Assembly (NCBI RefSeq): GCF_003790525.1
Contig: NZ_CP033635.1
Length of the DNA stretch: 64,000 nucleotides
From: Escherichia coli
GTDB taxonomy: Bacteria; Pseudomonadota; Gammaproteobacteria; Enterobacterales; Enterobacteriaceae
Reading direction: 5' to 3' (one strand)
Position 1 is the first letter of the stretch. Each line of letters begins with the position of its first letter. The notes below the pieces were generated by a model, which had not been told where the DNA came from, did no database searches, and saw only the letters and a program-made list of their open reading frames with translations. Positions 7,055-22,281 of the stretch are shown in pieces. A program made the translations under genes and the position numbers.

Positions 7055-7099
7055 AACATTCTCCCTCTGAGACGGAAGCCACTATAGTACTCGCCCGCC

Positions 7100-7126: not shown

Positions 7127-7229
7127 TTTATTTATAGCAATGTTATTTGTTTTGATGTCATTCGCCTTCTATACTCAGTCGGTATATCAAACCGCAATTG
7201 ATTAACCTGCAAATAAGAATAAAACTGAT

Positions 7230-8123: not shown

Positions 8124-8319
8124 ACATTCTGTTTACTAATAATTTATAGCCATTCACTGTTCCTGCATCATAGATATGGTGCAGCAACATTAAACACCAG
8201 CCATCTAAAAATTATGATTTATTAATTTCTGATTCAGTTAAATTCCTCTGAAAATAGATCCGTTATAGTTCCATGCATCTTTTGAAATCCCGACCAAATA
8301 ATGGGGTCGGCAAACATCT

Positions 8320-8520
8320 ATTTGAGACGTTGGTTCTCATCCTCAAGATCTTTGATTATTTTAATATCAGAAGATTCCATACCACCGTATCTGGACTTCC
8401 AGTTGTAGTAAGTGGCTCAGAGAAGCCTGCCTCCCGGCAGACATCTTTAACAGTTCGCCCGTATTCAAGCGATTTAATCACGGCGATAATCTGATGCTCA
8501 GTAAAAGGGGCTTTACGCAT
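8320..8520 (-). pseudogene. IS3-family orfA remnant (HTH transposase N-terminus), frameshifted
   Basis: Minus-strand translation MRKAPFTEHQIIAVIKSLEYGRTVKDVCREAGFSEP then, after a 1-nt frameshift, TYYNWKSRYGGMESSDIKIIKDLEDENQRLK; no orfB follows. Confidence 0.6.
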
Positions 8521-8594
8521 AGCGATCTCCTTCATTGGCAGATTGATTATGCCGGAGGATCTCTAAATGTTAATGGCACGATTATGCGGGATAT

Positions 8595-9500
8595 TTACAA
8601 TACCAGTCCAACCCTCAGCTTACTGCAATGCCCATCAAGAGGGATGGTCCACATTGACGTATCAAAATCGCTCTCTGACCAGCGAGCAAAACGCAGCTCA
8701 CTGGATCGAATAAAGATAAGCAGAGTGAGTTCTGTCGCCCAGCGGGTTAGCGGCCTGCCGGTATAGCTGTCTATTTTCTCAAGTAACTCAGGGATGCGCT
8801 TTAACTCCAGCGCCGGACGATGCTGTCGATTACTGGAAGCAACCGCCCCCGCCATCTCCTGCGCCGGATTGTAATGAATTAACCCGCTTTGCACTGCATA
8901 ACGCATGATGGCCGTGGTGCGCTGTTGAAGGCGGGAAGCCACTTCAAAACGTCCAGATTTCTCCACGGCTTTAATGGGAATTAACAGATCGCGGGTGCCC
9001 AGTTCAGCAATATTGCGAGCACCAATTGTTGGGAAGATATTGTCCTCCAGGCTCTTTTTTCCACGATTAGCATGATCTTCCGACCATTTTTGGTTTGTCA
9101 CGAGCCACTCTCTGGCAACCTTCTCGAAAGTAATAATCTCTTTCGCCTGCTCTTCTTTCACAGCACGTTTATGCTCACGAGGATCGATACCAGCAGCGAC
9201 CAGCTTTCTGGCCTCTTCCCTTTTCTTCCGCGCATCCGCCAGCGAAACATCCGGGTAAACGCCGAACGCCATCAAATGTTGTTTACCACCAAAACGGAAA
9301 CGAAATCACCAATACTTTGAACCGCCAGGTTTTACAAGTAAAGACATGCCGTCGCCGTCAACAAGTGAATACTCTTTCTCCTCTGACTTCACAGAACGAA
9401 CTTTAGTATCCGTTAGGGCAATAATGGTCTTCCTTCCATTGGTATCTCGTGAGTATACAAGCAATATCGAATCGGCAAATATACTCATAAGTATACTCAC
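8595..9500 (-). pseudogene. P4-type tyrosine integrase, frameshifted and lacking the catalytic C-terminal domain
   Basis: ORFs 9306..9500 and 8595..9275 together align with the N-terminal ~260 aa of the intact integrase at 19562..20827 (LTDTKVRSVK, FGVYPDVSLADAR, IMRYAVQ, SSELRFARW); ends just after WTIP. Confidence 0.85.
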
Positions 9501-9592
9501 AAGCCTGTTGATGTGGGTTGAGTCAGGTTGACTTCAGTTGAGAAGAAAAGCTGGAAAAGCCTTGCGTGGCGCGGATTTCAGGCATAAAAAAA

Positions 9593-9608
9593 GACCTCAG
9601 TTGAGGTC
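9593..9608 (-). terminator. Rho-independent terminator-like hairpin
   Basis: GACCTCAGTTGAGGTC palindrome preceded by an A-run on the plus strand (T-run on the minus strand). Confidence 0.45.
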
Positions 9609-9622
9609 TATTTACATACTTT

Positions 9623-9641
9623 TGGTGCGAAGGCCGGACTC
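9623..9641 (-). other. tRNA 3'-end-like remnant; probable att direct repeat at the junction of the two islands
   Basis: TGGTGCGAAGGCCGGACTC resembles the leuX 3' end TGGTGCCGAAGGCCGGACTCGAACC (one indel, one mismatch). Confidence 0.5.
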
Positions 9642-9819
9642 AAACATCAAAATAAGTTAATGATAAAAAACAAATAATAAAACACAACAATGAAATATGC
9701 CCCCTTTTGTGCCCCCACTGTTTTTCTGACCAATCTATTTTCAGCCCATCAATAAATCGGAAAGTTAAATCATTTTTAATCAGTAAGTTTGGATCCGTAG
9801 CTCGGCTCCAAACCAGTGC

Positions 9820-10140
9820 ATCTTTTATCCACATAAAAAATTTTTTTTCGAAAGAACTGTTCACACTGTTCACCTTTCTGTTTTCTCCTTTTATTTCATA
9901 GTGATAGGTGGTGAATAATGGGTGAAGGGTGAACATTCGATTCTTCACCTCCGGCATTCTGCCGGTGTGACTTGTGCAGGGGATTAATTTCCCGTGCTGA
10001 AATCACACCGGAAGAAAAAAGTTTTTTTTGATTTGATTGTTCACACTGTTCACCTTTCGTTTTTCTCTTTTAATTTCAGTGTGATAACGGGTGAATATAC
10101 GGTGAAGGGTGAACAGTGGATTGTTCACCTTCGGGGAATT
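9820..10140. repeat. P4 crr-like region: two tandem ~120-bp direct repeats carrying TGTTCACC/GGTGAACA octamers
   Basis: TGTTCACACTGTTCACC at 9858..9874 and 10037..10054; GGTGAAGGGTGAACA in both units; lies just past the 3' end of the alpha gene. Confidence 0.7.
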
Positions 10141-10179
10141 CAGGGATAAAAAAAGACCGGCAGATGCCGGTCAGGTGGG

Positions 10180-12513
10180 TCAGGCTGTTGCAGGGTCGTC
10201 ACATTTTGGCAGCCAGTCGCCGTAGCTTTCCTCTTTCAGCGTCAGGTTGGTCTGTATCCCCTGTTTGGTATGGCGCTTCTCGTAATTCAGTCCGTATTCC
10301 TTCAGCATCACCGGCAGCCCCAGCCCGAACATTTTCAGACTGAGTACATTCCGGTAGCCGTTTGCCTCCATGTAGGCCAGATAGGCGTGATAGAGGTATT
10401 TACGGTAATTGCGCGGGATGATACTGGCGTTCCCCATATACATGCCGCTGGTCTGCGGCAGGGTTTCCAGATAGCCGATAAAATCAAACGTCGGGTCGGC
10501 ATCCCGTTTGATGTTCAGTGCCTCGTCTGAGTTCTGCTGGGACTGAAGCAGTGACCGGGCGAGCATCGGGTCGCTGAACTTCTGCATCAGGTGACGCACG
10601 ATGACCGCCAGCTCGCGGGTGATTTTGTCCTTAAGCTGCGGGTCGCGCTCCTGCGGGGCTATCTGTTCCGGGAAGTGAATAATCACCCGCCGGCGTGACA
10701 CGCCGCCGCTGCGGTCGGTGAAGCGCATCGGGTTATTGTTCACGGCCAGAATTACCGCCGGGATATGCGTGGAGTATGCATCCCGGTATTTCGGGTCAAC
10801 GGACACCGCATCGCCGCCGGTGATGGCCTTGAGTCCGGCACCGTCGCCGCTCCATTTTTCCTGGTCCGGCAGGCGTATCAGTGAGAAGCCAGTTAACGCG
10901 GCACGTTCACGCGGGGATTCCAGCGTCTCGATGGTGGCCGACGTGGCGTTATCCTCCCCGGCCAGCAGGGTGGCTATTTCGGCCATGATACTTTTGCCGC
11001 TGCCGCCGGGACCGGTCACCTCCAGAAAGAGCTGCCAGTCGTAGCGGTTTGCCAGCACCATAAACAGTGCGGCCAGAATCACGTCGCGTTTTTCCGCACG
11101 GCCACCGGCGGCACGGTCAAGCCAGCACCAGAACGCGGGGGCGTGGGTCTCCAGCGTTTCACCGTCCACCGGCGGGGTGAAATCCACATCGCACAGGGTG
11201 CGCATCCAGTGTGACGGACTGTGCGGGTGGAACGTGCCGTTCTGCGTGTCGAGCACGCCGTTACGAAAGCCAATCAGGCGGCGGGAGGGGGCTTCCTGCT
11301 GCGGAATAATCAGCTTCAGGGTGTCCACCACGGAGGCCACCTTCCCGGAGGAGAACGGCGCGCGCAGACGCTGAAACAGCCCGGCCACATCCCGGGCAAA
11401 GTCCTGTGGTGGCAGCACCTTCCAGACACCATTTTCATAACGGGACAGAAGCTGGCCGTTGGCATCGACCGCGAGCGCCTCGCCGTAATGCTCATAGATA
11501 CGCATGGCCTTTTCGCTGGTACTCATGGCGGAAAACTCCGCTTCACTCATGGTGTCGAACGGGCTTTCAGCCGGTGGCCGGATGGCATCGTAAATGGCCT
11601 TACGGGTGGCCTCCCCGCCGTACTGCGTGAAGGCATCATTCCAGTCACCGAAGACCGGTGGCAGGGCAACAACACCTTCACACGCATCTGCGGCTGCGGC
11701 GGCTTTTTTCTGGCCATCACCGCTGAGGTCACGGTCAGCGGCAAGGACAATCTGACAGGCGGGGTGCTTCTGCCGGGCAAGGCTGGCCAGAGAAAGGAGG
11801 TTCACGGAAGAAAGCGCCACCATCACCGTTTCACCGGTCAGGTGATGCACGGTAAGTGCGGTCGCGTATCCCTCCGCTATCCACAGACGTTTTCCGGCCT
11901 GATTCTGTCCTTCAAGGATGTGACAGGTGCCCCTGACCTGTCCGCCTTTCAGGGTGCGCTTACGGCCGTCAGCACTGATTAACTGAAGGTTAACCAGTTC
12001 GCCGCTGTCGTCATACAGTGGCACCACAAGGTCACCGGCGCGCCAGCTCACGCCACCGGCTCTGTGTGTGCCGGTCAGCATCCGGCATTCCCGGCCGGGA
12101 AAGCCCTTGCGGGTCAGGTAGGCGTTACCGGTTCCGGGACGGGTTTTCGCCATCAGGGTTTGTGCCAGTGCGGCGGCGTTCTTCCGGGCAGCGTCTGTTT
12201 CAGCACCGGCGGCAGCCGTCACTGCCGGGTCAGCCGGGGGCAGGCTGCCGGTCACGGCAGCCACCTTTGTGGCCGCGTCGGACGGGGAGACACCAAACAC
12301 CTTTTCAACCAGTTTCAGGCCGTCACCGGCACCACACTGATTGCAGTACCAGGTGCCGCGCCCCTCCCTGTCATCAAAACGGAAGCGGTCACTCCCGCCA
12401 CAGACCGGACAGGGCTGATGACGGTTCTTCAGCACCTGAATCCCCAGCGCCGGGAGAATACGCGGCCAGTGGCCGAGCGCATGGCTGACGGTGGCGGTTA
12501 CGTTCATTTTCAT
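10180..12513 (-). CDS. P4 alpha-type primase-helicase
   Basis: 777 aa (the length I recall for P4 alpha); N-terminal zinc-binding CPVCGG...CNQCG; P-loop GPGGSGKS. Confidence 0.9.
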   Translation of the reverse strand: MKMNVTATVSHALGHWPRILPALGIQVLKNRHQPCPVCGGSDRFRFDDREGRGTWYCNQCGAGDGLKLVEKVFGVSPSDAATKVAAVTGSLPPADPAVTAAAGAETDAARKNAAALAQTLMAKTRPGTGNAYLTRKGFPGRECRMLTGTHRAGGVSWRAGDLVVPLYDDSGELVNLQLISADGRKRTLKGGQVRGTCHILEGQNQAGKRLWIAEGYATALTVHHLTGETVMVALSSVNLLSLASLARQKHPACQIVLAADRDLSGDGQKKAAAAADACEGVVALPPVFGDWNDAFTQYGGEATRKAIYDAIRPPAESPFDTMSEAEFSAMSTSEKAMRIYEHYGEALAVDANGQLLSRYENGVWKVLPPQDFARDVAGLFQRLRAPFSSGKVASVVDTLKLIIPQQEAPSRRLIGFRNGVLDTQNGTFHPHSPSHWMRTLCDVDFTPPVDGETLETHAPAFWCWLDRAAGGRAEKRDVILAALFMVLANRYDWQLFLEVTGPGGSGKSIMAEIATLLAGEDNATSATIETLESPRERAALTGFSLIRLPDQEKWSGDGAGLKAITGGDAVSVDPKYRDAYSTHIPAVILAVNNNPMRFTDRSGGVSRRRVIIHFPEQIAPQERDPQLKDKITRELAVIVRHLMQKFSDPMLARSLLQSQQNSDEALNIKRDADPTFDFIGYLETLPQTSGMYMGNASIIPRNYRKYLYHAYLAYMEANGYRNVLSLKMFGLGLPVMLKEYGLNYEKRHTKQGIQTNLTLKEESYGDWLPKCDDPATA

Positions 12514-12527
12514 GGTGTTGTTCTCCT

Positions 12528-12848
12528 TCAGTGCAGTACCGGCGCTTTTATGTGACGGGCACAGAGTTCATCCATCACAACCAGCCCGAGAAAGGACAGC
12601 GACGGCGCGGCCTTCAGGGGGCCGGATTCCATTAAATCTTCCAGCAGGGCACAGGCTATCTGACGCCCTTTTTCCTCACCGTGCTGGCGCAGATAAAAGC
12701 CTTCCAGCTCAGCGGCGATGGCCGCCTCCAGTGACTCAAGGGTGAGATGCGGGTAGCGGTGCTGACGTTCGCACACGGTCAGCCAGGCACAGGCGACAGC
12801 GCGACGGTAAAGGGCAGCGCGTAAGACGGGCGGTAAGGGTGTTTTCAT
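12528..12848 (-). CDS. Hypothetical protein, P4-like accessory ORF
   Basis: 106-aa ORF immediately upstream of alpha on the same strand. Confidence 0.55.
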
Positions 12849-12983
12849 TTGTTTTCCTCCCTGTGACAGATGACTGCATTCCGTGCCGGTTGCATTAACT
12901 GATAAGGCATATCTGCGTCTCCTGAAGACGTGCGTATCCCTGCGCGAATACGCACATTTAATTTTTCGGGTGTCGTTTTTTAA

Positions 12984-13439
12984 TTACAGATAATTGCGGT
13001 AACTGTTATCCGGGGTGATTTCCGGGTCAGGCTCCGTGCGGGGAATTTCCCGCCATTCCCGCGCCACCGGTGCCGCCCGGCTGACCGGAACAGTGTCCTG
13101 CGGGTAAATATCCAGATATTTCTCCCGCCATTTCTGTAATTCCGGGTCTCCGGCCATTTCTTTCAGTACCGCATGCCGGTTTACGGGGCTGCGTTTGAAC
13201 AGGTCAGGACGGTCACAGGTAAATTCCCGCAGAAAACGCCCCAGCGGGATGTCTGTGGTGCGCCCGTCGGCGAGGATACGCACAAGGATACTGAATTTAC
13301 GGCGGTACGGGTTCCAGACAATGTCCGGGCAGCGGTACGGCATTTCCCACGGAATACCGTCTTCCAGAATGCCGACCACGGCCACATCGGGAAAACCGGC
13401 AGAACGGTAAATCTCACCGGGCTGGGGAAAATCAAACAT
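12984..13439 (-). CDS. Hypothetical protein, P4-like accessory ORF
   Basis: 151-aa ORF in the same operon orientation. Confidence 0.55.
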   Translation of the reverse strand: MFDFPQPGEIYRSAGFPDVAVVGILEDGIPWEMPYRCPDIVWNPYRRKFSILVRILADGRTTDIPLGRFLREFTCDRPDLFKRSPVNRHAVLKEMAGDPELQKWREKYLDIYPQDTVPVSRAAPVAREWREIPRTEPDPEITPDNSYRNYL

Positions 13440-13800
13440 GCGTCCTGTCTCCCCGGTCTTTCTGCTGGGCGAGAAAATCGCGGCACAGGCCTTTGGCTTT
13501 CAGCTCATTCAGCACAAAATCAATATCTTCATTCAGGTAGCTGAAAATATGCGGAATGTAGAGCTGATGCAGGCCGGAGAGTTCACGGTGAATCAAATCA
13601 CCCCCAACAAACTGGGATACGGCGCTGGCGCGGTTGAGCTTATGGTAAGCCTCAATGCTGAGGTGTTCACGGGCGTCATGACGCGCTGAGACGGTCTGAG
13701 GGGCTTTTTTATTACGCACGGGACACCTCCACCACCGGCAGACGGGCAGCAAGGGAGAGCACATAGTCACGGACAAGGGAACGGCGGGCGCTGCGTTCAT
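13432..13800 (-). CDS. Hypothetical small protein in the position of P4 epsilon; start uncertain
   Basis: ORF 13432..13959 with internal ATG candidates at 13800 and 13764; overlaps another frame (13712..14302). Confidence 0.3.
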
Positions 13801-14298
13801 CACCGGCGACGGTGCGAAGCATGCAGATACGGGGATGACGGTCTGCGCGACGGACAGCCGCAAACACAAAGACAAATTCAGGGTGTGAGGGGGTAAGGGT
13901 TGTAGCCATAAGGCAGCCTCCTTCGAGTAGCAAATAACTGCTATCGCCGGAGTTCTCACGCTCGATGGCGATAGCCCAGACGGGGGTGAGAATACCGGCC
14001 TCGAAGAATACCGGCCAGCCCGGAGGCTGCCCCGCCTGAGCTACCATTGACTCAGTGGCATAACATGCGATTGCGAACAGGATAATACCTGCACGGCAAA
14101 CCACACGCCACACCATAATCTGGCGCTCTGTGGCGTTGATTGCGACACAAAAAAAGACGCATGGCGCGTCATATGTCGCCTTCGAGTTACACGGGTTCTC
14201 ACGCCCGGCTGCCGATTTTGCGGCAACGGAAAGACTATATCCGCAAATGCCGGAAAAAGGCAAGCCAGAAAAAGGGAGTTTTTGCAGAGCGGGCATCA

Positions 14299-14565
14299 TC
14301 ATGCGTCATACCCCCGTTTGCGTCCGGCAATGCGGCCGGCCATCCATGCGGTGACTTCAGAGTGCAGCCAGGCCACATTTTTACCGCCAAGACTCACCTG
14401 CGGCGGAAATTCCCCCTTACGGATGAGTTCGTAGATGGTCGAGCGTGACAGGCCGCACAGGTGCATCACTTCCGGAAGACGCAAAAAACGCTCCTGTGTG
14501 ATGTCCGGCTGCGGCATCAGTGGCGTCACAGGGGCGGGAGACGGGGAAGAAAAAACAGCTTGCAT
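14299..14565 (-). CDS. AlpA-family phage transcriptional regulator / excisionase-like protein
   Basis: 88 aa; HTH segment [27 protein letters not shown] typical of the AlpA family. Confidence 0.75.
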
Positions 14566-14844
14566 CGGGCTACCTCGTTAATGTCCATACAGCACCGGAT
14601 AAGTCTGTCCGGCTTCGGGTAGCGCTTTATTTTGTGAATATTTTCAGCAGACGCAACAGGGGGGATTTGTTCCGGCAGCCTTACAATGCTTGTGTGTTTT
14701 TTGTTCATCTCCACTTAAAGTCATTTAAAGCCACTTAAAGCAATTCGTAATTTTTATAGTGAAATACAAATCGTTTTTTCTTATTCATTCCCGGCGAATT
14801 AATAAAAACAAACAGTAGTAAACAGCACAAAAAGCCCATCAACG

Positions 14845-14950
14845 GGTGAACAGTGGTGAACAGACGGTGAACAGTCATTACTGCGATTGTTCACCCTTTA
14901 ACTTACTGTATTACTTATCTTTTTTCTTATGGCGAACAGAGGTGAACAGT
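14845..14950. repeat. P4 ori-like iteron cluster (at least 5 GGTGAACA/TGTTCACC octamers)
   Basis: GGTGAACAGTGGTGAACAGACGGTGAACAG, then TGTTCACCC, then GCGAACAGAGGTGAACAG; about 4.7 kb from the crr-like repeats. Confidence 0.65.
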
Positions 14951-15117
14951 AAAATATAAAAAAACAAACAGTAAGACGGTTTTTCCTGCGACCTTTTCCT
15001 GGCTTGCCGGTGTGAGGATGAGTCTCCTGTGTCAGGGCTGGCACATCTGCAATGCGTCGTGTTGTTGTCCGGTGTACGTCACAATTTTCTTAACCTGAAG
15101 TGACGAGGAGCCGGAAA

Positions 15118-15852
15118 ATGTCTGACAACACCATCCCTGAATATCTGCAACCCGCGCTGGCACAACTGGAAAAGGCCAGAGCCGCCCATCTTGAGAACGC
15201 CCGCCTGATGGATGAGACCGTCACGGCCATTGAACGGGCAGAGCAGGAAAAAAATGCGCTGGCGCAGGCCGACGGAAACGACGCTGACGACTGGCGCACG
15301 GCCTTTCGTGCAGCCGGTGGTGTCCTGAGCGACGAGCTGAAACAGCGCCACATTGAGCGCGTGGCACGCCGGGAGCTGGTACAGGAATATGACAATCTGG
15401 CCGTGGTGCTGAATTTTGAACGCGAACGCCTGAAAGGGGCGTGTGACAGCACGGCCACCGCCTACCGGAAGGCACATCATCACCTGCTGAGTCTGTATGC
15501 AGAGCATGAGCTGGAACACGCCCTGAATGAAACCTGTGAGGCGCTTGTCCGGGCAATGCATCTGAGCATTCTGGTACAGGAAAATCCGCTCGCCAACACC
15601 ACCGGGCATCAGGGCTACGTCGCACCCGATAAAGCTGTCATGCAGCAGGTGAAATCATCGCTGGAACAGAAAATAAAACAGATGCAAATCAGCCTCACCG
15701 GCGAGCCGGTTCTCCGGCTGACCGGACTGTCAGCGGCAACACTCCCGCACATGGATTATGAGGTGGCAGGCACACCGGCACAGCGCAAGGTGTGGCAGGA
15801 CAAAATAGACCAGCAGGGAGCAGTGCTTAAGGCCAGAGGACTGCTGTCATGA
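15118..15852 (+). CDS. sid: P4 Sid-like capsid size-determination protein
   Basis: 244 aa from the ATG at 15118 (RBS GAGGAG); followed by delta and psu in P4 order. Confidence 0.7.
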   Translation: MSDNTIPEYLQPALAQLEKARAAHLENARLMDETVTAIERAEQEKNALAQADGNDADDWRTAFRAAGGVLSDELKQRHIERVARRELVQEYDNLAVVLNFERERLKGACDSTATAYRKAHHHLLSLYAEHELEHALNETCEALVRAMHLSILVQENPLANTTGHQGYVAPDKAVMQQVKSSLEQKIKQMQISLTGEPVLRLTGLSAATLPHMDYEVAGTPAQRKVWQDKIDQQGAVLKARGLLS

Positions 15853-16349
15853 TTTACTGCCCGTCGTGTGGACATGTTGCTCACACCCGTCGCGCACATT
15901 TCATGGACGATGGCACCAAGATAATGATTGCACAGTGCCGGAATATTTATTGCTCTGCGACATTTGAAGCGAGTGAAAGCTTTTTCTCTGACAGTAAAGA
16001 TTCAGGAATGGAATACATTTCAGGCAAACAGAGATACCGCGATTCACTGACGTCAGCCTCCGGCAGTATGAAACGCCCGAAAAGAATGCTTGTTACCGGA
16101 TATTGTTGTCGGAGATGTAAAGGCCTTGCACTGTCAAGAACATCGCGGCGTCTGTCTCAGGAAGTCACCGAGCGTTTTTATGTGTGCACGGATCCGGGCT
16201 GTGGTCTGGTGTTTAAAACGCTTCAGACCATCAACCGCTTCATTGTCCGCCCGGTCACACCGGACGAACTGGCAGAAAGCCTGCATGAAAAACAGGAACT
16301 GCCGCCAGTACGGTTAAAAACACAATCATATTCGCTGCGTCTGGAATGA
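15849..16349 (+). CDS. Ogr/Delta-family zinc-finger late-gene activator (tandem Ogr-like repeats)
   Basis: 166 aa; two CxxC...C..C units (YCPSCGH...CRNIYC and CCRRCKG...CTDPGC); ATGA overlap with the sid stop. Confidence 0.8.
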   Translation: MIYCPSCGHVAHTRRAHFMDDGTKIMIAQCRNIYCSATFEASESFFSDSKDSGMEYISGKQRYRDSLTSASGSMKRPKRMLVTGYCCRRCKGLALSRTSRRLSQEVTERFYVCTDPGCGLVFKTLQTINRFIVRPVTPDELAESLHEKQELPPVRLKTQSYSLRLE

Positions 16350-16422
16350 GGGCTGCCGGTTAACACCGGCCGTCGCCGCACACCGTATTTTTATTCTTCA
16401 GCATGATGAGAAAGAGATAACG

Positions 16423-16995
16423 ATGGAAAGCACAGCCTTACAGCAGGCCTTTGACACCTGCCAGAATAACAAAGCAGCATGGCTGCAACGCAAAAATGAG
16501 CTGGCTGCGGCCGAACAGGAATATCTGCGGCTTCAGTCCGGGGAAGGCAGAAACGTCAGTCGCCTTGACGAATTACGCAATATTATCGAAGTCAGAAAAT
16601 GGCAGGTGAATCAGGCCGCCGGTCGTTATATTCGTTCGCATGAAGCCGTTCAGCACATCAGCATCCGCGACCGGCTGAATGATTTTATGCAGCAGCACGG
16701 CACAGCACTGGCGGCGGCACTGGCACCGGAGCTGATGGGCTACAGTGAGCTGACGGCCATTGCCCGAAACTGTGCCATACAGCGTGCCACAGATGCCCTG
16801 CGTGAAGCCCTTCTGTCCTGGCTTGCGAAGGGTGAAAAAATTAATTATTCCGCACAGGATAGCGACATTTTAACGACCATCGGATTCAGGCCTGACGTGG
16901 CTTCGGTGGATGACAGCCGTGAAAAATTCACCCCTGCGCAGAACATGATTTTTTCGCGTAAAAGTGCGCAACTGGCATCACGTCAGTCTGTGTAA
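16423..16995 (+). CDS. psu: P4 Psu-like polarity suppression protein
   Basis: 190 aa, position after delta; length matches P4 Psu as I recall. Confidence 0.7.
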   Translation: MESTALQQAFDTCQNNKAAWLQRKNELAAAEQEYLRLQSGEGRNVSRLDELRNIIEVRKWQVNQAAGRYIRSHEAVQHISIRDRLNDFMQQHGTALAAALAPELMGYSELTAIARNCAIQRATDALREALLSWLAKGEKINYSAQDSDILTTIGFRPDVASVDDSREKFTPAQNMIFSRKSAQLASRQSV

Positions 16996-17159
16996 AATTC
17001 CCCGAAAATCCGCCCGTTTTTACTGAAAAAAGCCATGCATCGATAAGGTGCATGGCTTTGCATGCGTTTCCCTGCCTCATTTTCTGCAAACCGCGCCATT
17101 CCCGGCGCGGTCTGAGCGTGTCAGTGAAACTGCATTAAAACCGCCCCGCAAAGCGGGCG

Positions 17160-17178
17160 GGCGAGGCGGGGAAAGCAC
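17160..17178. other. P2/P4-type cos cohesive-end site
   Basis: GGCGAGGCGGGGAAAGCAC read directly; matches the P2/P4 cos sequence as I recall; sits after psu as in P4. Confidence 0.6.
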
Positions 17179-17368
17179 TGCGCGCATGATATAAAAGAGT
17201 ATTAAGAATTTTACAGAAACAGCTAATACAGACGCTGAAGTAAAATCATTGAGACCATTCGTGATTTGATGCAAAAAATTGCACAACATAAGCTCCTATG
17301 GTTCATAGTAATACTATTAAACCTATCTTTTCGTTGGTATATTACCCATTTTGTAATGGAGAATTGAA

Positions 17369-19501
17369 ATGCTTTCTACTCAGGATATAAACGGTTTTTT
17401 TAATGCTGTTGACTCTCTCAAAAGGTTTAAACGAGCAGAAATAAGGGACAACAAAGATAAACCACTTATTGATTCACTTTACACAGATCTATTGCCAAAC
17501 AATCACGTCTTCAAAATGTGCTACGGGGAAAACACTACATTTTTAATTGGAAGAAAAGGCACAGGAAAATCCACAATAATTCTTAAACTTGAAAGTGAGT
17601 ACAGAAAAGAATCTTCATACCTCCCATGCTATATAGATACAAAAACAGTATTCGAAAGTGTTAGAGGTGAGTATCAAAAAATAGACTACCTAAAAGGGAA
17701 GATACCTGAAGAGCATCTAGAAAAATATTTAGTCGAGCGTGCATTCATTAAAAACATCTTGAAATCAATCGGTGACGAATTGAATATTCGAGCAGAAAGC
17801 ATATTCTCAAAACTAGCAGGGATTGTTAATGCAAGCAAAAAACAAGCGGTAAAAGCAAAAATAACAAAACTACTTTTAATGGTGGACAATAACCAAATAA
17901 TAAAAGAAATTGAAATACCCGTAATAACAGAAGTAAATACTAAACTTACTAAGGCGAACGAATCAGAAAATGGAACTACCCAAAACTATAACTCTGAGCT
18001 AACTGTAAAAATCGGAACATCACAACATGAAGGTGGTGGAAAAATAGGAGCGGTAAAAGGAATCACCTCAAGACAGAAAAACAATGACGCTTGGGAAAAG
18101 AGTTTCTCTACAGCCCTTCTAAAGGTTTTTCAAATCACATCAGTAATTGAAGAAATTAAAATCATATTAAGAGAGCTAGGAGTAAAAAAGCTTGTAATAT
18201 TTTTAGACGATTTCTCTGAAGTTGAAGAGAAGACGCTAAAAAACTTCGTCGATGTTGTACTTGCTCCGCTAAATAACTGGGCTAATGATTTCATTTGTTT
18301 TAAAGTCGCTGCCTACCCAAGTCGCATATATTATGGCGACATTGATGTTGGCAAAATAGATGTGGTAAATTTAGATTTTTATAATTTATATTCTAATTAT
18401 GATAAATCTACGATGGAATCCTTATCAGCTGACTTCACCAAGAGACTTTTAAATCAAAGGCTTAATCAGTTTTGCACATTGAAGTTTGAAGATTATTTTG
18501 ATACATCTTCAGCTACTCCAGAAGAGTACTATGATCTTATATTTAAAGTATCCATGAATGTCCCTAGAATTATAGGATACATTCTTTATTACTGCCATCA
18601 AACCAATGTATCTCTTGGCAGAAAAATAAATAAAGGCTCAATCGAGAAAGCAGCTCAGACTTATTATGAGCAAGTTGTATCTAAGTTTTTCGATATTGCC
18701 ACGCATAGTCTGATGTCTTTCAGTGAAAAAGTTTCTGAACTTCAGCAAAAAGAGATTCTAAATCTCTTCGTTCAGAAATTAAAAACGATTAAGCGACAAA
18801 TAATAACAAATGAACTAACTGGCACAATTTACAATAGAGACAGAACAAATCCTTATTGTAGTCATTTTTATTTTCAACCTAATCTTGAACATTTTCTGCG
18901 TACATTGGAGCTTAATTTCTTCATTACCAAATATAATGAATTAGTAAATAAAGACGGAAACAAGGTCTCGATATATGGAATAAATTATGGATTAGCTCGA
19001 AGTGAAAACCTCAAATGGGGAAAACCTGAAGGTAATCAGTTCCGTAGTTATTTCGTAGAAAGACCATTTGATTTCAACAAAGATATCGAAGATTTCTTAA
19101 GAGAATCGAAAAAAATCGTATGTCTTAATAGCTCTTGTGATAAAACCTATCCATATGAAGAACTTGCATTTCTTGAATATAATAAAATGAGATGTATTGA
19201 ATGCCAGTCGCCTGTTGAAGTAAGATCGTTTTCTGAAAGTATCAGTTCTGAAATATCTAAAATTGACAACGCTAAACTTTTACCAAAATTAGAATTAATG
19301 ATATTACATGAACTGAATAAGGCAGACGATCATCTCCTAGCTCGAGACATTGCTGAGGAACTAGACGCTTCATCACAATTAATTGCCAAACGGGCTGAAA
19401 AATTAGACAGAAAAGGTCTTGTTTTTAGAGATAAAAGTGATGCATTAATTAAGTATTCAATAACAAATAAAGCAGTAGAAGGTTATTTCTATGATGACTA
19501 A
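17369..19501 (+). CDS. Uncharacterised P-loop NTPase with C-terminal zinc ribbon and wHTH-like tail; sole cargo gene of the P4 cos-int slot; candidate anti-phage protein
   Basis: 710-aa ORF; RBS GGAGA 7 nt upstream; Walker A GRKGTGKST (res 61-69); Walker B-like LVIFLDDFSE (res 275-284); C-x4-C-x18-C-x2-C near res 585-610; terminal wHTH-like segment; visibly AT-rich versus flanking genes. Confidence 0.85.
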   Translation: MLSTQDINGFFNAVDSLKRFKRAEIRDNKDKPLIDSLYTDLLPNNHVFKMCYGENTTFLIGRKGTGKSTIILKLESEYRKESSYLPCYIDTKTVFESVRGEYQKIDYLKGKIPEEHLEKYLVERAFIKNILKSIGDELNIRAESIFSKLAGIVNASKKQAVKAKITKLLLMVDNNQIIKEIEIPVITEVNTKLTKANESENGTTQNYNSELTVKIGTSQHEGGGKIGAVKGITSRQKNNDAWEKSFSTALLKVFQITSVIEEIKIILRELGVKKLVIFLDDFSEVEEKTLKNFVDVVLAPLNNWANDFICFKVAAYPSRIYYGDIDVGKIDVVNLDFYNLYSNYDKSTMESLSADFTKRLLNQRLNQFCTLKFEDYFDTSSATPEEYYDLIFKVSMNVPRIIGYILYYCHQTNVSLGRKINKGSIEKAAQTYYEQVVSKFFDIATHSLMSFSEKVSELQQKEILNLFVQKLKTIKRQIITNELTGTIYNRDRTNPYCSHFYFQPNLEHFLRTLELNFFITKYNELVNKDGNKVSIYGINYGLARSENLKWGKPEGNQFRSYFVERPFDFNKDIEDFLRESKKIVCLNSSCDKTYPYEELAFLEYNKMRCIECQSPVEVRSFSESISSEISKIDNAKLLPKLELMILHELNKADDHLLARDIAEELDASSQLIAKRAEKLDRKGLVFRDKSDALIKYSITNKAVEGYFYDD

Positions 19502-19523
19502 ATAGAAACTAACAATGAAAAGC

Positions 19524-19553
19524 TCAACGCTGATTCTAGGGCGTTGAGCTACT
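19524..19553. terminator. Bidirectional terminator hairpin between convergent genes
   Basis: AGCTCAACGC ... GCGTTGAGCT perfect 10-bp inverted repeat between the NTPase stop (19501) and the integrase stop (19562). Confidence 0.6.
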
Positions 19554-19561
19554 TAATAATT

Positions 19562-20827
19562 TTAGATCCTAGCAAAATCATAGGCCGTAATATTTTGATA
19601 TCGATTAATATCTAGATAGTCAGCCCACCATTGCATCATCAAACGACGCTCTTCTAAATGCTCTGAAGTATGAATATAAGCTGCGCGTACATTGTTACGT
19701 TCTGAATGGCTCAATTGACGTTCTATCGCATCATCACTCCATAGTCCCGATTCCCCCAACGCCCCGCGTGCCATAGTCCTAAAACCATGGCCACATACTT
19801 CTGTTTTTGTGTCATATCCCATTACACGCAATGCATTGTTTACCGTATTTTCACTCATAACCTTAGTTGCGTCATGATCGCCCGGGAAAAGAAAGTCTCT
19901 ATCACCACTAATCTGCTTAAGCTGTTCTAACAATATAATCGCCTGTCGGCTAAGCGGAACTATATGCTCCTCTTTCATTTTCATGCCACGATACGAGTAA
20001 CGTACGCCTTTAATTTCTTCTCGTTTAGCAGGAATACGCCAAGTAGCGTTATCAAAATCAAATTCTTTCCAACGAGCAAAACGTAATTCACTTGAACGAA
20101 CAAAAGTTAGTAAAGAAAGCTCAACCGCAATTTTCGTCATCATACGCCCACGATATACATCAAGACGTGCCAAGAACTCATGGAAACGATGTGATGGTAG
20201 CGCCGGGTAGTGCCGCGTTTTCGCCGTAGATAACGCACCGGCCATATCAATTGCAGGATTTGAGTCTACATAATCGTTCTGAACAGCATAGCGCATAATA
20301 GCAGTGACACGTTGCTGAAGACGCTGCGCTACATCATGCTTACCACTGGCATCAACTTTTTTTATCGGTGCCAAAAGGTGACTAGTTTTAAGCTGTCGAA
20401 TATCAGACGAGCCAATATAGGGAAAGATATAAAGCTCTAGATAGCGAAGAACCCGTGCCCGATGTTCCTCACTCCAACGCTTATTGCTGGCATGCCATTC
20501 ACGAGCAATAGTTTCAAAATTATAAGCACCAGCATTAACTGCTTGGGCCTCTTTCTGTACTGCTTTTGGATCTATACCTTGCACCAGCAACTTTTTGGCT
20601 TCATCCCTTCTAGCTCTAGCTTCAGCAAGCGTCACAGTCGGCCAAACACCAAAAGCAAGACGATCCTCTTTTTTGTCGGAAGGTCGTCTATATTTCATAC
20701 GCCAATATTTAGAGCCTTTGACAGAAACCTCGAGGTACAAACCGCCACCATCGGCCATTTTATAGGTTTTATCTTTTGGCTTTGCGGTCTCGACCTGTCT
20801 GGCGTTGAGCTTCATTTGGGGGCACAT
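19562..20827 (-). CDS. int: P4-type tyrosine integrase, intact
   Basis: 421 aa; adjacent to the tRNA-Leu 3' end; conserved HGFRT motif and C-terminal catalytic region. Confidence 0.9.
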   Translation of the reverse strand: MCPQMKLNARQVETAKPKDKTYKMADGGGLYLEVSVKGSKYWRMKYRRPSDKKEDRLAFGVWPTVTLAEARARRDEAKKLLVQGIDPKAVQKEAQAVNAGAYNFETIAREWHASNKRWSEEHRARVLRYLELYIFPYIGSSDIRQLKTSHLLAPIKKVDASGKHDVAQRLQQRVTAIMRYAVQNDYVDSNPAIDMAGALSTAKTRHYPALPSHRFHEFLARLDVYRGRMMTKIAVELSLLTFVRSSELRFARWKEFDFDNATWRIPAKREEIKGVRYSYRGMKMKEEHIVPLSRQAIILLEQLKQISGDRDFLFPGDHDATKVMSENTVNNALRVMGYDTKTEVCGHGFRTMARGALGESGLWSDDAIERQLSHSERNNVRAAYIHTSEHLEERRLMMQWWADYLDINRYQNITAYDFARI

Positions 20828-20978
20828 CCCTAATCGAAGTTAAGATGCCCCCAATTATGCCCCCAATGACATCCGGATTTCAACGTACAACCTCGGACGA
20901 CTCGGGACGTTAAAATCACTGCAAGCATTGATTTTTAAGGAATTATTGGACTTTCTCGGATGGTCTAGGAAGTGCTTA

Positions 20979-21063
20979 TGGTGCCGAAGGCCGGACTCGA
21001 ACCGGCACGTATTTCTACGGTTGATTTTGAATCAACTGCGTCTACCGATTTCGCCACTTCGGC
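20979..21063 (-). tRNA. leuX: tRNA-Leu (anticodon CAA)
   Basis: 85-nt cloverleaf on the minus strand (GCCGAAGTGGCGAAATCGGTAGACGCAGTTGATTCAAAATCAACCGTAGAAATACGTGCCGGTTCGAGTCCGGCCTTCGGCACCA). Confidence 0.95.
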
Positions 21064-21258
21064 ACTGAAGAGGTATGCGGAAAACGTTGTGGATTATACC
21101 TGTCGCACGCCACCATGCAAGCGCCAGCTTGCTCGCATCTCGCTAAGTGCTGAAATTTTCAGCATTACACTCAGCGATGTGTAACCTTTGTCACACTCCA
21201 GGCACCCCGCCCTGCCATGCTCTACACTTCCCAGACAACACCAGAGAAGGACCAAAAA

Positions 21259-22278
21259 ATGTCGATGATAAAAAGCTATGCCGCAAAAGAAGCGGGCGGC
21301 GAACTGGAACTTTATGAGTACGATCCCGGTGAATTGAAGCCACAAGATGTTGAAGTGCAGGTGGATTACTGCGGGATCTGCCATTCCGATCTGTCGATGA
21401 TCGACAACGAATGGGGATTTTCACAGTATCCGCTGGTTGCCGGGCATGAGGTGATTGGTCGCGTGGTGGCGCTCGGGAGTGCCGCACAGGATAAAGGTTT
21501 GCAGGTCGGTCAGCGTGTCGGGATTGGCTGGACGGCACGCAGCTGCGGGCATTGCGATGCCTGTATTAGCGGTAATCAGATCAACTGCGAGCAAGGTGCG
21601 GTGCCAACAATTATGAATCGCGGCGGTTTTGCCGAGAAGTTGCGTGCGGACTGGCAATGGGTGATTCCGCTGCCAGAAAATATCGATATCGAGTCCGCCG
21701 GGCCGCTGCTGTGTGGTGGTATCACGGTCTTTAAACCACTGTTGATGCACCATATCACTGCTACCAGCCGCGTTGGGGTAATTGGTATTGGCGGGCTGGG
21801 GCATATCGCTATAAAACTTCTGCACGCAATGGGATGCGAGGTGACAGCCTTTAGTTCTAATCCGGCGAAAGAGCAGGAAGTACTGGCGATGGGTGCCGAT
21901 AAAGTGGTGAATAGCCGCGATCCGCAGGCACTGAAAACTCTGGCGGGGCAGTTTGATCTCATTATCAATACTGTGAACGTCAGCCTCGACTGGCAGCCTT
22001 ATTTTGAGGCGCTGACGTATGGCGGTAATTTCCATACGGTCGGTGCGGTTCTCACGCCGCTGTCTGTTCCGGCCTTTACGTTAATTGCGGGCGACCGCAG
22101 CGTCTCTGGCTCTGCTACCGGCACGCCTTATGAGCTGCGTAAGCTGATGCGCTTTGCCGCCCGCAGCAAGGTTGCGCCAACTACCGAACTGTTCCCGATG
22201 TCGAAAATTAACGACGCCATCCAGCATGTGCGCGACGGTAAGGCGCGTTACCGCGTGGTTCTGAAAGCCGATTTTTGA
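21259..22278 (+). CDS. ahr: NADPH-dependent aldehyde reductase, Zn-dependent ADH family
   Basis: 339 aa from [18 protein letters not shown] and GHEVIG zinc-ADH motifs; matches my recollection of E. coli Ahr/YjgB. Confidence 0.85.
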
Positions 22279-22281
22279 AAA

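What the first reader, a model, noticed from the sequence alone, without database searches (positions are those of the whole stretch)
9650..20978. Apparently intact P4-like satellite with ori/crr iterons and cos
Backbone genes show P4-like lengths (alpha 777 aa, Sid 244, Delta 166, Psu 190), a GGCGAGGCGGGGAAAGCAC cos site, and two TGTTCACC octamer clusters ~4.7 kb apart (crr-like tandem 120-bp repeats at 9820..10140; ori-like cluster at 14845..14950). The element may still be mobilisable by a P2-like helper, which would spread its cargo gene.
Basis: partly seen in the sequence, partly recalled or inferred. Interest (0 to 1): 0.5.

Follow-up and report, generated by a model that had tools for sequence, protein, structure and literature searches.

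The report
Intact P4-type phage satellite at leuX
This stretch is a complete-looking copy of the well-known phage satellite P4, inserted next to a leucine tRNA gene of E. coli and carrying one uncharacterised passenger gene; it is an ordinary, already catalogued kind of element.

Summary
Window 9623-20998 is an 11,356-bp P4-family satellite prophage at tRNA-Leu(CAA) (leuX).

- **Backbone:** 97.9% identical to phage P4, in P4 gene order. All seven family-defining genes are full-length (pN/pS 0.09 against P4).
- **cis sites:** the 19-nt cos end is exact, 15 of 16 P4 replication octamers are unchanged, and both 120-bp crr copies are kept (separated by 60 bp, not tandem).
- **Immunity:** the CI RNA is present. 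Its recognition loop and both target sites have changed together, so the element is probably heteroimmune to P4.
- **Differences from P4:** the int allele (83% nt) and the cos-proximal hotspot, where gop/beta/cII are replaced by one 710-aa gene.
- **attL:** its core lacks one C. This is the population norm, not decay (149 exact matches against 4 in E. coli genomes; 43 against 1 in metagenome contigs).
- **Recent transfer:** copies differing by 2-7 SNPs sit beside different left flanks in other strains, while the adjoining chromosome differs by 1.9%. Precise empty sites exist.
- **Cargo:** an Orc1/Cdc6-like AAA+ ATPase with a zinc ribbon and a winged helix. It matches no known defence family and is listed as "hypothetical" in a published hotspot catalogue.

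Mobilisation is inferred, not shown. Low novelty.

The parts
9623..9641 (.). attL core, 19 bp: TGGTGCGAAGGCCGGACTC. It is the P4/leuX 20-bp core minus one C.
   Evidence: The same 19-bp form is found in 149 exact matches against 4 for the 20-bp form in E. coli genomes and 43 against 1 in metagenome contigs.
9695..9718 (-). Two arm-type Int-binding repeats of the P' arm (AAGGGGGCATAT, GTGGGGGCACAA)
   Evidence: Identical to P4 4151-4174
9835..10134 (+). crr, the cis replication region: two 120-bp direct repeats (9835-9954 and 10015-10134), each with 5 type-1 octamers, separated by a 60-bp spacer
   Evidence: 119/120 and 120/120 identical to P4; the spacer differs at 13 of 60 positions. Repeat family confirmed.
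10155..10172 (-). t-alpha-like intrinsic terminator downstream of alpha
   Evidence: it lies at the position that P4 annotates as talpha
10180..12513 (-). alpha, the primase-helicase and origin-binding protein, 777 aa
   Evidence: 99.0% aa identity to P4 with 8 substitutions; EGYATA at 214 and Walker A at 501; pN/pS 0.12; TIGR01613 match
12528..12848 (-). orf106 / cnr, 106 aa
   Evidence: 100% identical to P4
12984..13439 (-). orf151, 151 aa
   Evidence: 99.3% identical to P4
13432..13719 (-). epsilon, the helper-derepression protein, 95 aa
   Evidence: 98.9% identical to P4
13712..13909 (-). Icd-like small reading frame just downstream of seqC. It is the C-terminal part of the mechanical 196-aa ORF 13712-14302.
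   Evidence: NCBIfam phage_ICD_like, 72 bits against a cutoff of 25, on residues 143-190; start ATG located
13920..13927 (-). seqC, a target of the immunity RNA that overlaps the Shine-Dalgarno sequence of the Icd-like frame. CTCGAAGG here, TTCACAGG in P4.
13964..14051 (-). CI immunity RNA (Rfam C4 family). The seqB loop at 13999-14010 reads UAUUCUUCGAGG.
   Evidence: RF01695, 74.3 bits against a gathering score of 45. P4's own CI RNA scores 74.9.
14179..14186 (-). seqA, a target of the immunity RNA in the PLE leader. CTCGAAGG here, TTCACAGG in P4. It lies within the isrK-like and c4-a1b1 Rfam matches at 14150-14240.
14234..14263 (-). PLE-like promoter (TTGCCT, 18-nt spacer, TATAGT)
   Evidence: sequence identical to P4 in alignment A1
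14299..14565 (-). orf88 / vis (AlpA-type excisionase and regulator), 88 aa
   Evidence: 97.7% identical to P4
14668..14685 (+). TGT-N12-ACA dyad upstream of the leftward late promoter (PLL region). This is the Ogr/Delta-type activator site pattern.
   Evidence: The differences from P4 fall only inside the N12. The role of the site comes from prior knowledge and was not tested.
14711..14740 (+). Three ori type-2 decamers (CCACTTAAAG, TCATTTAAAG, CCACTTAAAG)
   Evidence: Identical to P4 9176-9205
14845..14948 (.). ori cluster of six type-1 octamers. Five are exact TGTTCACC; 14931-14938 is TGTTCGCC.
15028..15083 (+). Two TGT-N12-ACA dyads upstream of sid (Psid region)
   Evidence: no difference from P4 in this interval
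15118..15852 (+). sid, the capsid size-determining external scaffold, 244 aa
   Evidence: 98.8% identical to P4
15849..16349 (+). delta, an Ogr-like double zinc-finger late activator, 166 aa
   Evidence: 98.2% identical to P4. All eight zinc-finger Cys are kept; the C72G/G73S change lies in the linker.
16423..16995 (+). psu, the polarity suppression and capsid decoration protein, 190 aa
   Evidence: 99.5% identical to P4
17118..17186 (+). cos region. The 19-nt cohesive end lies at 17160-17178; the flanks are shared with P2-type helpers.
   Evidence: Exact 19-mer. 88-94% identity to the cos regions of P2-like phages over query 7819-7886. P4 positions 1-27 align to 17160-17186.
17369..19501 (+). 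Hotspot cargo, a 710-aa protein: Orc1/Cdc6-like AAA+ ATPase (Walker A GRKGTGKST, Walker B LDDFSE), a four-Cys zinc ribbon (C585/590/609/612) and a MarR-like winged helix (about 640-700)
   Evidence: Listed as a 'hypothetical' hotspot occupant, WP_042346724, in Rousset et al. 2022 Table S1.
19562..20827 (-). int, a P4-type tyrosine integrase, 421 aa
   Evidence: 88.8% aa and 83% nt identity to P4 Int. The catalytic boxes are conserved; only the tail after WADYLD differs. pN/pS 0.08.
20816..20866 (.). Three arm-type Int-binding repeats of the P arm (TTGGGGGCACAT, TTGGGGGCATCT, TTGGGGGCATAA)
   Evidence: Identical to P4 3915-3965. A fourth P4 repeat, inside int, is not conserved.
20979..21063 (-). 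tRNA-Leu(CAA) (leuX). Its 3' end, 20979-20998, is the intact 20-bp attR core TGGTGCCGAAGGCCGGACTC.

Best explanation
Window 9623-20998 is a complete P4-family phage satellite. In the classification of de Sousa and Rocha it is 'Type A', with P4 gene order. It lies as a prophage in the 3' end of leuX.

HOW IT SHOULD WORK, from established P4 biology; only the presence of the parts is shown here.
- Quiescence: transcripts from PLE are processed into the CI RNA. Its loop (seqB) pairs with seqA and seqC on the same leader and terminates transcription early.
- Activation by a P2-type helper: Epsilon derepresses the helper. Delta and the helper's Ogr switch on Psid and PLL through TGT-N12-ACA sites. 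Int plus Vis recombine attL with attR to release an 11.36-kb circle.
- Replication: Alpha primes and unwinds at ori with the help of crr, binding the TGTTCACC octamers.
- Packaging: Sid and Psu force helper capsid protein into a small shell. The helper terminase cuts and packages the satellite at cos.

DIFFERENCES FROM P4.
(a) A divergent int allele.
(b) An immunity module with a co-changed seqA/seqB/seqC, predicted to be heteroimmune to P4.
(c) A different hotspot cargo: a single Orc1/Cdc6-like ATPase with a winged helix, which would travel with the satellite.

SHOWN: the anatomy, the conservation, the covariation and the population distribution. INFERRED: activity of each part and mobilisation.
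For: IDENTITY AND SYNTENY WITH P4.

GENES: all nine backbone genes compared with P4 are full-length and 97.7-100% identical in protein (Int 88.8%). Pooled pN/pS is 0.09.

CATALYTIC AND METAL-BINDING RESIDUES are kept in Int, Alpha and Delta.

cis SITES:
- cos is exact, with P2-like flanks.
- 15 of 16 octamers and 3 of 3 decamers are unchanged. The crr repeats are 239/240 identical to P4 while the 60-bp spacer between them has 13 changes, a sign of selection on the repeats.
- Five of six arm-type Int sites are identical to P4.
- The PLE hexamers, the talpha-like terminator and the activator dyads are present.

IMMUNITY: the CI RNA scores 74.3 bits against Rfam C4. Loop and targets changed together: cognate duplexes are -12.5 and -14.4 kcal/mol, close to P4's -13.6 and -16.0, against -5.8 to -9.1 for mixed P4/window pairs.

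SIZE: 11,356 bp against 11,624 bp for P4.

RECENT MOVEMENT:
- 2 SNPs in 11,376 nt against Ec42 (Ghana, human) and 7 against F2_81 (Australia, pig).
- Across five carrier strains the left flanks differ.
- The right chromosomal flank is only 98.1% identical to Ec42.

EMPTY SITE: a simulated excision product (left flank + 20-bp core + leuX) matches three genomes at 100% over 800 nt, and 387 genomes cover at least 80% of it.
Against: - No experiment: excision, replication and packaging are all inferred.
- No P2-like helper was seen in the parts of the window that were examined. The left is a Wadjet island; the right is chromosome and then another island. Positions 53801-64000 were not annotated.
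- The attL core has 19 of 20 bases, and attL and attR share only 14 contiguous identical bases. This form is the norm, but its effect on excision has not been measured.
- One ori octamer carries an A>G change.
- The C-terminal tail of Int differs from P4.
- No free attP form was found in plasmid, viral or metagenome collections.
Confidence: 0.85

Rival explanations
1. Domesticated, immobile P4-like remnant. The element is inherited vertically, kept for its cargo and immunity functions, and can no longer excise or be packaged.
For: - The attL core lacks one base relative to attR.
- No helper was seen in the window.
- Three listed genomes (at most six at 99% identity or better, of 5420) carry the 19-bp core fused directly to leuX. 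An example is strain 702/18, with an 84-nt leuX. This could reflect imprecise loss rather than Int-mediated excision.
- No free attP form was found.
Against: - Every gene and cis site is intact, with pN/pS 0.09.
- The immunity loop and both its targets co-varied.
- The 19-bp attL is the usual form next to at least seven different left flanks.
- The element is about 100 times less diverged from its Ec42 copy than the adjacent chromosome is.
- Precise empty sites exist.
Confidence: 0.1
2. A functional satellite with a different specificity from P4. It may depend on a P2-like helper other than P2 itself, or use a different crossover point in att, so that P4-based expectations (P2 as helper, a 20-bp core) do not transfer directly.
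For: - Int is only 83% nt and 88.8% aa identical to P4 Int.
- The immunity specificity determinants differ from P4.
- The 19-bp core travels with the P' arm in 149 of 153 exact matches in E. coli genomes and in 43 of 44 metagenome contigs, whereas empty sites are almost always 20 bp. This implies strand exchange to the left of the missing C.
Against: - Epsilon, Delta, Sid and Psu, the proteins that contact the helper, are 98-99.5% identical to P4's.
- cos is exact and matches the cos regions of P2-type phages.
- This is a refinement of the main explanation rather than a contradiction of it.
Confidence: 0.25
3. Chance resemblance or an assembly chimera.
For: None found.
Against: - 7.5 kb is collinear with P4 at 97.9% identity.
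- The octamer and cos counts are far above those of shuffled sequence.
- The same element sits at the same locus in several independently assembled complete genomes.
Confidence: 0.01

Closest known systems
Enterobacteria phage P4 (X51522 / NC_001609)
   Same: - Gene order int - [att] - crr - alpha - cnr - orf151 - epsilon - CI RNA - vis - ori - sid - delta - psu - cos.
- 97.9% nt identity over 7.5 kb.
- Identical cos 19-mer, iterons, arm-type Int sites and promoter hexamers.
- The same leuX target.
   Different: - gop/beta/cII (P4 28-2675) are replaced by one 710-aa gene.
- int is 83% identical in nt, with a different C-terminal tail.
- The seqA/seqB/seqC specificity bases differ.
- There is a 9-bp deletion plus two offsetting 1-bp indels upstream and downstream of the CI RNA.
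- The attL core is 19 bp, not 20.
- The element is 268 bp shorter.
P4-like satellites of E. coli with a defence hotspot between psu/cos and int (Rousset et al. 2022, PMC9122126; de Sousa & Rocha 2021, PMC8628076; bioRxiv 10.64898/2026.02.27.708500)
   Same: - All seven core components are present in the majority order (Type A).
- The variable cargo lies exactly at the cos-proximal hotspot.
- This very cargo protein, WP_042346724, is listed as a single 'hypothetical' hotspot occupant in Rousset Table S1.
- Near-identical elements are found in Ec42, F2_81, CFIAFB20120266, C311 and YC21-F17.
   Different: Nothing structural. The cargo has no assigned defence family. I found no test of it in the main texts and held supplements that I searched.
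P1/P7 c4 antisense RNA - icd - ant immunity module (Rfam clan CL00128)
   Same: A processed stem-loop RNA whose loop pairs with two upstream/downstream target sites, one of which covers the ribosome-binding site of an Icd-like frame. Rfam C4, c4-a1b1 and NCBIfam Icd-like all match.
   Different: In P4-type elements the outcome is premature transcription termination of the replication operon. This comes from prior knowledge and was not tested here.
Orc1/Cdc6 and related AAA+ initiator-clade ATPases with a C-terminal winged helix (for the cargo only)
   Different: - No sequence-level membership: the best NCBIfam hit, Sll1717, scores 37 bits against a cutoff of 75.
- There is a long helical insertion with a disordered loop (198-233), an extra small alpha/beta domain and a zinc ribbon.
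- No recognisable nuclease or other effector domain.

Membership tests
P4-like satellite family (Type A sensu de Sousa & Rocha 2021) | [quoted passage not shown] | tested here: met
   All seven are present as full-length ORFs, 88.8-99.5% identical to the P4 proteins. Definition taken from PMC8628076.
P4-like satellite family (Type A sensu de Sousa & Rocha 2021) | P4 gene order, with int and alpha separated only by att in the circular form | tested here: met
   The collinear blocks with P4 join at attL and attR. The annotation tables agree.
P4-like satellite family | A cos site shared with P2-type helpers, next to the variable hotspot | tested here: met
   The exact 19-mer lies at 17160-17178. 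Window 17118-17185 is 88-94% identical to the cos regions of P2-like phages. The cargo starts 191 bp downstream.
P4-like satellite family | alpha-dependent bipartite origin: ori plus crr with TGTTCACC iterons about 4.5 kb apart | tested here: met
   15 of 16 octamers are identical to P4; the crr copies are 119/120 and 120/120 identical. Binding by Alpha was not tested.
P4-like satellite family | RNA-based immunity: a CI RNA with a seqB loop complementary to seqA and seqC | tested here: met
   Rfam C4 at 74.3 bits. Three-way compensatory change, with cognate duplex energies of -12.5 and -14.4 kcal/mol.
P4-like satellite family | Site-specific integration into a tRNA gene with flanking att repeats and regeneration of the tRNA | tested here: met
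   The attR core forms the intact 3' end of an 85-nt tRNA-Leu(CAA). The attL core is 19 of 20 bases. The empty site is found in other genomes.
   11,356 bp between the att cores. The packaging limits come from prior knowledge, not from a test.
P4-like satellite family | Helper-dependent excision, small-capsid assembly and transduction | not testable with these tools
   Needs infection or induction experiments. Only indirect population evidence of recent transfer is available.
Phage P4 itself (same genomic species) | Near-full-length nucleotide identity to the P4 reference | tested here: not met
   Only 75% of the query is covered, at 95.6%. The cargo region has no homology and int is 83% identical.
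Known anti-phage defence families (PADLOC-DB v2) - cargo | A significant profile match over the ATPase or effector part | tested here: not met
   There are only weak hits (E 2e-4 to 9e-3), and they cover the C-terminal winged helix alone.
MarR family transcriptional regulators (the RefSeq name of the cargo) | A protein of roughly 140-160 aa made essentially of the MarR winged-helix dimerisation/DNA-binding fold | tested here: not met
   Only residues 641-688 match MarR_2 (E 1.8e-4). The other 640 or so residues are an AAA+ module, helical domains and a zinc ribbon.
'Reve' single-gene P4-hotspot defence system (bioRxiv 10.64898/2026.02.27.708500) - cargo | Sequence identity or similarity to the tested KAP-type P-loop protein | tested here: not met
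   The synthesised sequence just before UnknownSys8 in Dataset E1, which I take to be Reve (its header was not displayed), begins VDKSAIIS...GEWGVGKT, an inspection-level difference from the cargo's Walker A region. None of seven k-mers from the cargo gene occurs in the datasets. Both proteins do have ORC as their top Foldseek hit.
Orc1/Cdc6-type AAA+ ATPases - cargo | Initiator-clade AAA+ fold with Walker A and B motifs plus a C-terminal winged helix | tested here: inconclusive

The most novel reading that the evidence does not exclude
The 710-aa hotspot gene (17369-19501) may be a new single-gene anti-phage defence protein. It would be an Orc1/Cdc6-like AAA+ switch that uses its zinc ribbon and winged helix to recognise invading phage DNA or a replication intermediate. 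Mobile elements, including this still-mobile satellite, would spread it between Enterobacteria, Vibrio, Shewanella and more distant phyla.

A second, smaller possibility is that most wild P4-type satellites carry a 19-bp attP core. That would place Int strand exchange in the last 6-7 nt of leuX (GCACCA-3').
Probability: 0.4. Interest if true: 0.45.

Novelty: already known. Interest (0 to 1): 0.2.

Why it matters
It matters little as a discovery. P4-like satellites are present in a large share of E. coli genomes, and their cos-proximal hotspot is a published reservoir of defence genes. This element occurs at 99.98% identity in RefSeq genomes, and its cargo is already listed, as 'hypothetical', in a published table.

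Its practical value is threefold:
- It is a clean, apparently functional vehicle carrying an uncharacterised, widely distributed ATPase with a winged helix, which is a reasonable candidate for a defence screen.
- It is a natural example of three-way compensatory change in an RNA immunity system.
- It led to a population-level observation about the att core that bears on where P4-type integrases exchange strands.

Tried and rejected
1. **The 1-bp deletion in attL as an inactivating lesion.** Rejected. The 19-bp form is found in:
   - 149 exact matches against 4 for the 20-bp form, among 171 E. coli genomes that carry this P' arm;
   - 8 of 8 IMG/VR hits;
   - 43 of 44 metagenome contigs.
   It lies next to at least seven different left flanks.
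2. **The short Int (421 aa against 439) as a truncation.** Rejected. The two proteins share the same start, and they diverge only after W400ADYLD, beyond the catalytic Tyr.
3. **Delta C72G as loss of a zinc ligand.** Rejected. The eight finger cysteines (4, 7, 30, 35, 86/87, 90, 113, 118) are invariant, and residue 72 is in the linker.
4. **The 196-aa ORF in place of P4's '137-aa cI' as a frameshifted gene.** Rejected as irrelevant. The region encodes the CI RNA and a small Icd-like frame. The old 'cI protein' annotation is not the immunity factor (prior knowledge).
5. **A free attP sequence, to settle whether the satellite's attP core is 19 or 20 bp.** Nothing was found in plasmids, in metagenome contigs with a P-arm-anchored pattern or in IMG/VR.
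6. **Correlation of att core type with the P-arm or int allele.** Not supported. A P4-reference-type P arm occurs with a 19-bp attL in L034.
7. **The cargo as the 'Reve' or 'Toga' system of the 2026 preprint.** Neither identification is supported. The sequence I took to be Reve differs from the cargo. Toga is described as SMC-like and was rejected on that description alone; its sequence was not compared.
8. **The cargo against PDB sequences, PHROGs and PADLOC.** No informative hit.
9. **Williams 2002 on tRNA sublocations of integrases.** The paper is not held in the library.
10. **A P2-like helper in the window.** None was seen in the annotated matches up to 53,800. Positions 53,801-64,000 were not annotated.

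Full report
**1. What is there.**
- The ORFs are alpha (10180-12513, minus strand, 777 aa), sid (15118-15852, 244 aa), delta (15849-16349, 166 aa) and psu (16423-16995, 190 aa).
- The P4/P2 cohesive-end 19-mer occurs once, exactly, at 17160-17178; none is expected by chance.
- TGTTCACC occurs 12 times in the window against 2.2 expected. Ten of these lie in two clusters, at 9867-10129 and 14845-14948.
- The only tRNA in the window is tRNA-Leu(CAA) at 20979-21063 on the minus strand.

**2. Whole-element alignment to P4.**
BLAST against the P4 reference (X51522) gives four blocks.
- 9623-17159 equals P4 4078-11624 at 97.9%. This runs from the attP core through crr, alpha, the immunity region, ori, sid, delta and psu to the right cos end.
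- 17160-17186 equals P4 1-27, the left cos end.
- 17187-19575 has no P4 counterpart.
- 19576-21002 equals P4 2676-4101 (int and attP) at 83%.

So the prophage is a P4 genome opened at attP, as expected for integration. P4's non-essential gop/beta/cII block is replaced by other DNA. The element is 11,356 bp long, against 11,624 bp for P4.

**3. Are the genes intact?**
- Against P4, protein identities are: alpha 99.0%, cnr 100%, orf151 99.3%, epsilon 98.9%, vis 97.7%, sid 98.8%, delta 98.2%, psu 99.5% and Int 88.8%. None has an internal stop.
- Synonymous changes dominate: pooled pN/pS is 0.09, and 0.08 for the much more diverged int.
- Alpha keeps the primase EGYATA motif at 214 and the Walker A motif GPGGSGKS at 501.
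- Int starts at the same codon as P4 Int. It keeps the RSSELR, HGFRT and AAYIH catalytic boxes. It diverges only in the tail after W400ADYLD, where the hotspot replacement begins.
- Delta's C72G/G73S change lies in the linker; all eight zinc-finger cysteines are invariant.

**4. Are the cis sites intact?**
- Of P4's 16 annotated type-1 octamers, including its own one-mismatch variants, 15 are identical here. One ori copy reads TGTTCGCC (14931-14938).
- The three type-2 decamers are identical.
- The two 120-bp crr copies, at 9835-9954 and 10015-10134, are 119/120 and 120/120 identical to P4. The 60-bp spacer between them has 13 changes, which suggests selection on the repeats themselves.
- Five of six arm-type Int sites are identical to P4.
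- The PLE hexamers and the alpha terminator are present.
- TGT-N12-ACA dyads of the Ogr/Delta type lie upstream of sid and in the PLL region. Their role comes from prior knowledge.
- The cos flanks (17118-17185) match the cos regions of P2-like helper phages at 88-94%.

**5. Immunity.**
- Rfam places a C4-family antisense RNA at 13964-14051 on the minus strand, scoring 74.3 bits. P4's own CI RNA scores 74.9. The associated isrK-like and a1/b1 target elements are at 14150-14240.
- This is the most diverged part of the backbone, with 37 differences in 250 bp.
- The differences are patterned. The CI loop (seqB) changes from AUCCUGUGAA to AUUCUUCGAG. Both targets change from TTCACAGG to CTCGAAGG: seqA at 14179-14186 and seqC at 13920-13927.
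- Cognate duplexes are predicted at -12.5 and -14.4 kcal/mol, like P4's -13.6 and -16.0. Mixed P4/window pairs reach only -5.8 to -9.1.
- The module is therefore internally matched, which indicates that it is functional and under selection. It is probably heteroimmune to P4. The mechanism, RNA-induced premature termination, is established P4 biology recalled from the literature and was not tested here.

**6. The att sites.**
- attR (20979-20998) is the exact 20-bp P4 core and forms the 3' end of leuX. attL (9623-9641) lacks one C: TGGTGC-GAAGGCCGGACTC.
- I first treated this as possible decay. It is not private to this element.
- The same 19-bp core next to the same P' arm appears in every relative I read, beside at least seven different left flanks.
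- Among the 171 E. coli complete genomes that carry this P' arm, 149 match the 19-bp form exactly and 4 match the 20-bp form.
- In metagenome contigs the ratio is 43 to 1. All 8 IMG/VR hits have the 19-bp form.
- By contrast, leuX itself has the 20-bp form in all but at most six of 5420 genomes.
- The simplest reading is that the 19-bp core belongs to the satellite's attP and that strand exchange occurs to the left of the missing C, in the last 6-7 nt of the tRNA gene. This is an inference. I found no free attP sequence to confirm it, and the P4 reference carries the 20-bp form.
- Strain 702/18 has this window's left flank joined to leuX through the 19-bp core, giving an 84-nt leuX. This is the product expected from a crossover to the right of the missing C, so rare alternative resolutions seem to occur.

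**7. Evidence of recent movement.**
- A simulated excision product (left flank + 20-bp core + leuX) matches three complete genomes at 100% over 800 nt. In all, 387 genomes cover at least 80% of it. The site is therefore polymorphic for occupancy with base-pair precision.
- The element differs by 2 SNPs in 11,376 nt from the copy in Ec42 (human, Ghana) and by 7 from the copy in F2_81 (pig, Australia).
- The chromosome immediately to the right is only 98.1% identical to Ec42 over 7.9 kb.
- Five strains carry the element with identical Int (WP_042346729) and cargo (WP_042346724) proteins. Their left flanks differ:
  - Ec42: an integrase and a phosphoethanolamine-transferase pseudogene.
  - F2_81: AbiJ and IS30.
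  - CFIAFB20120266 and YC21-F17: a methyltransferase island with a decayed integrase.
  - This window: a Wadjet island.
- This pattern is what horizontal transfer of a mobile satellite predicts. Turnover of the left-flank islands is an alternative contributor.

**8. The cargo.**
- The 710-aa ORF (17369-19501) is named 'MarR family transcriptional regulator' in RefSeq. Only residues 641-688 match MarR_2, at E 1.8e-4.
- It belongs to a family of about 710 aa, very constant in length, with 849 database hits. These come from Enterobacteria, Vibrio cholerae, Shewanella, Aeromonas, Bacteroidota and cyanobacteria.
- In V. cholerae it stands alone next to a filamentous prophage and an IS element.
- Invariant residues include Walker A (G61-R-x-G-T-G-K-S-T), Walker B (L279-D-D-F-S-E) and four cysteines (585, 590, 609, 612).
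- There is no hit in PADLOC beyond the winged helix, none in PDB sequences, and only a sub-threshold NCBIfam hit (Sll1717, 37 bits against a cutoff of 75).
- It is listed as a single 'hypothetical' occupant of the P4 hotspot in Rousset et al. 2022 Table S1.
- It does not look like the 'Reve' KAP-type protein of the 2026 preprint.
- Given its position, my best guess is an anti-phage function based on ATP-dependent DNA recognition. Six of eight randomly chosen unknown P4-hotspot loci gave protection in that preprint. Neither the function nor the mechanism is shown.

**9. Comparison with the known, and verdict.**
- The element meets every sequence-testable criterion of the P4-like family: Type A, all seven core components in P4 order, as defined in PMC8628076.
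- It is a close relative of P4 itself. It differs in the two places where the family is known to vary, the hotspot and the int allele, and in immunity specificity.
- It is not P4 sensu stricto: coverage is 75% at 95.6% identity.
- Mobilisation by a helper remains an inference. No helper was seen in the parts of the window examined: an IS1414-interrupted Wadjet island on the left, then chromosome, then another island on the right.
- This is an already-known kind of element and an already-catalogued instance. Interest is low, with modest upside from the cargo and from the att-core observation.

Noticed in passing
window 9623-9641, compared with loci L001, L004-L016 and L021-L065: The attL of wild P4-like prophages almost always carries a 19-bp core that lacks one C (149 exact matches against 4 in E. 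coli complete genomes; 43 against 1 in metagenome contigs), whatever the left flank. Unoccupied leuX sites have the 20-bp core. This implies that the 19-bp form travels in the satellite's attP and that strand exchange lies in the last 6-7 nt of leuX. The P4 reference is of the minority 20-bp type.
   Followed up: partly
L016 (E. coli 702/18, NZ_CP074701.1), locus 601-684: An empty site has this window's left flank joined to leuX through the 19-bp core, giving an 84-nt tRNA-Leu with a shortened acceptor stem. It looks like a scar from satellite loss by a crossover to the right of the missing C. BS-04 and O111:H21 strain 15A also match the 19-bp core fused to the tRNA body at 100%, but I did not read their sequences.
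   Followed up: partly
window 13912-14190 (-): Three-way compensatory change relative to P4 in the RNA immunity system: four bases changed in the seqB loop, with matching changes in both seqA and seqC. This predicts a different immunity specificity.
   Followed up: yes
window 9955-10014: The 60-bp spacer between the two crr repeats differs from P4 at 13 positions, whereas the 240 bp of repeats differ at only one. The contrast suggests that the repeats, not the spacer sequence, are under selection.
   Followed up: no
window 1-9600: The left flank is a Wadjet-like island, identified by comparison with strain 2D. It holds ORFs of 1361, 298 and 488 aa on the minus strand, a WYL-domain gene at 7230-8123 and a decayed P4-type integrase at about 8595-9500. 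The largest ORF is cut at about 615 by the end of an IS1414 (IS256-family) element that occupies 1 to about 620. As a result, the JetD-domain gene and the C-terminus of the large protein seen in strain 2D are missing from this position.
   Followed up: partly
window about 28,930-53,800: Collinearity with the Ec42 chromosome ends at about 28,926, after ahr, the idn genes and the start of yjgR. What follows matches a different genomic island found elsewhere in other E. coli genomes, with a PTS transporter, a YadA-like adhesin, a GTPase-family protein and many hypothetical genes. Positions beyond 53,800 were not examined.
   Followed up: no
L065 (E. coli H2, NZ_CP028733.1), locus 6694-24810: In one of the four genomes with a 20-bp attL, a second integrative element with a 636-aa site-specific integrase sits between the AbiJ flank and the P4-like satellite. 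All three att copies there have the 20-bp core.
   Followed up: no
window 9640-9957 (-): A 105-aa ORF spans the attL-proximal arm sites and the first crr repeat. RefSeq annotates a 74-aa version as 'integrase', and P4 RefSeq has a GeneMark-only 'hypothetical protein' there. It is probably not a real gene, because the DNA is occupied by Int arm sites and iterons.
   Followed up: no
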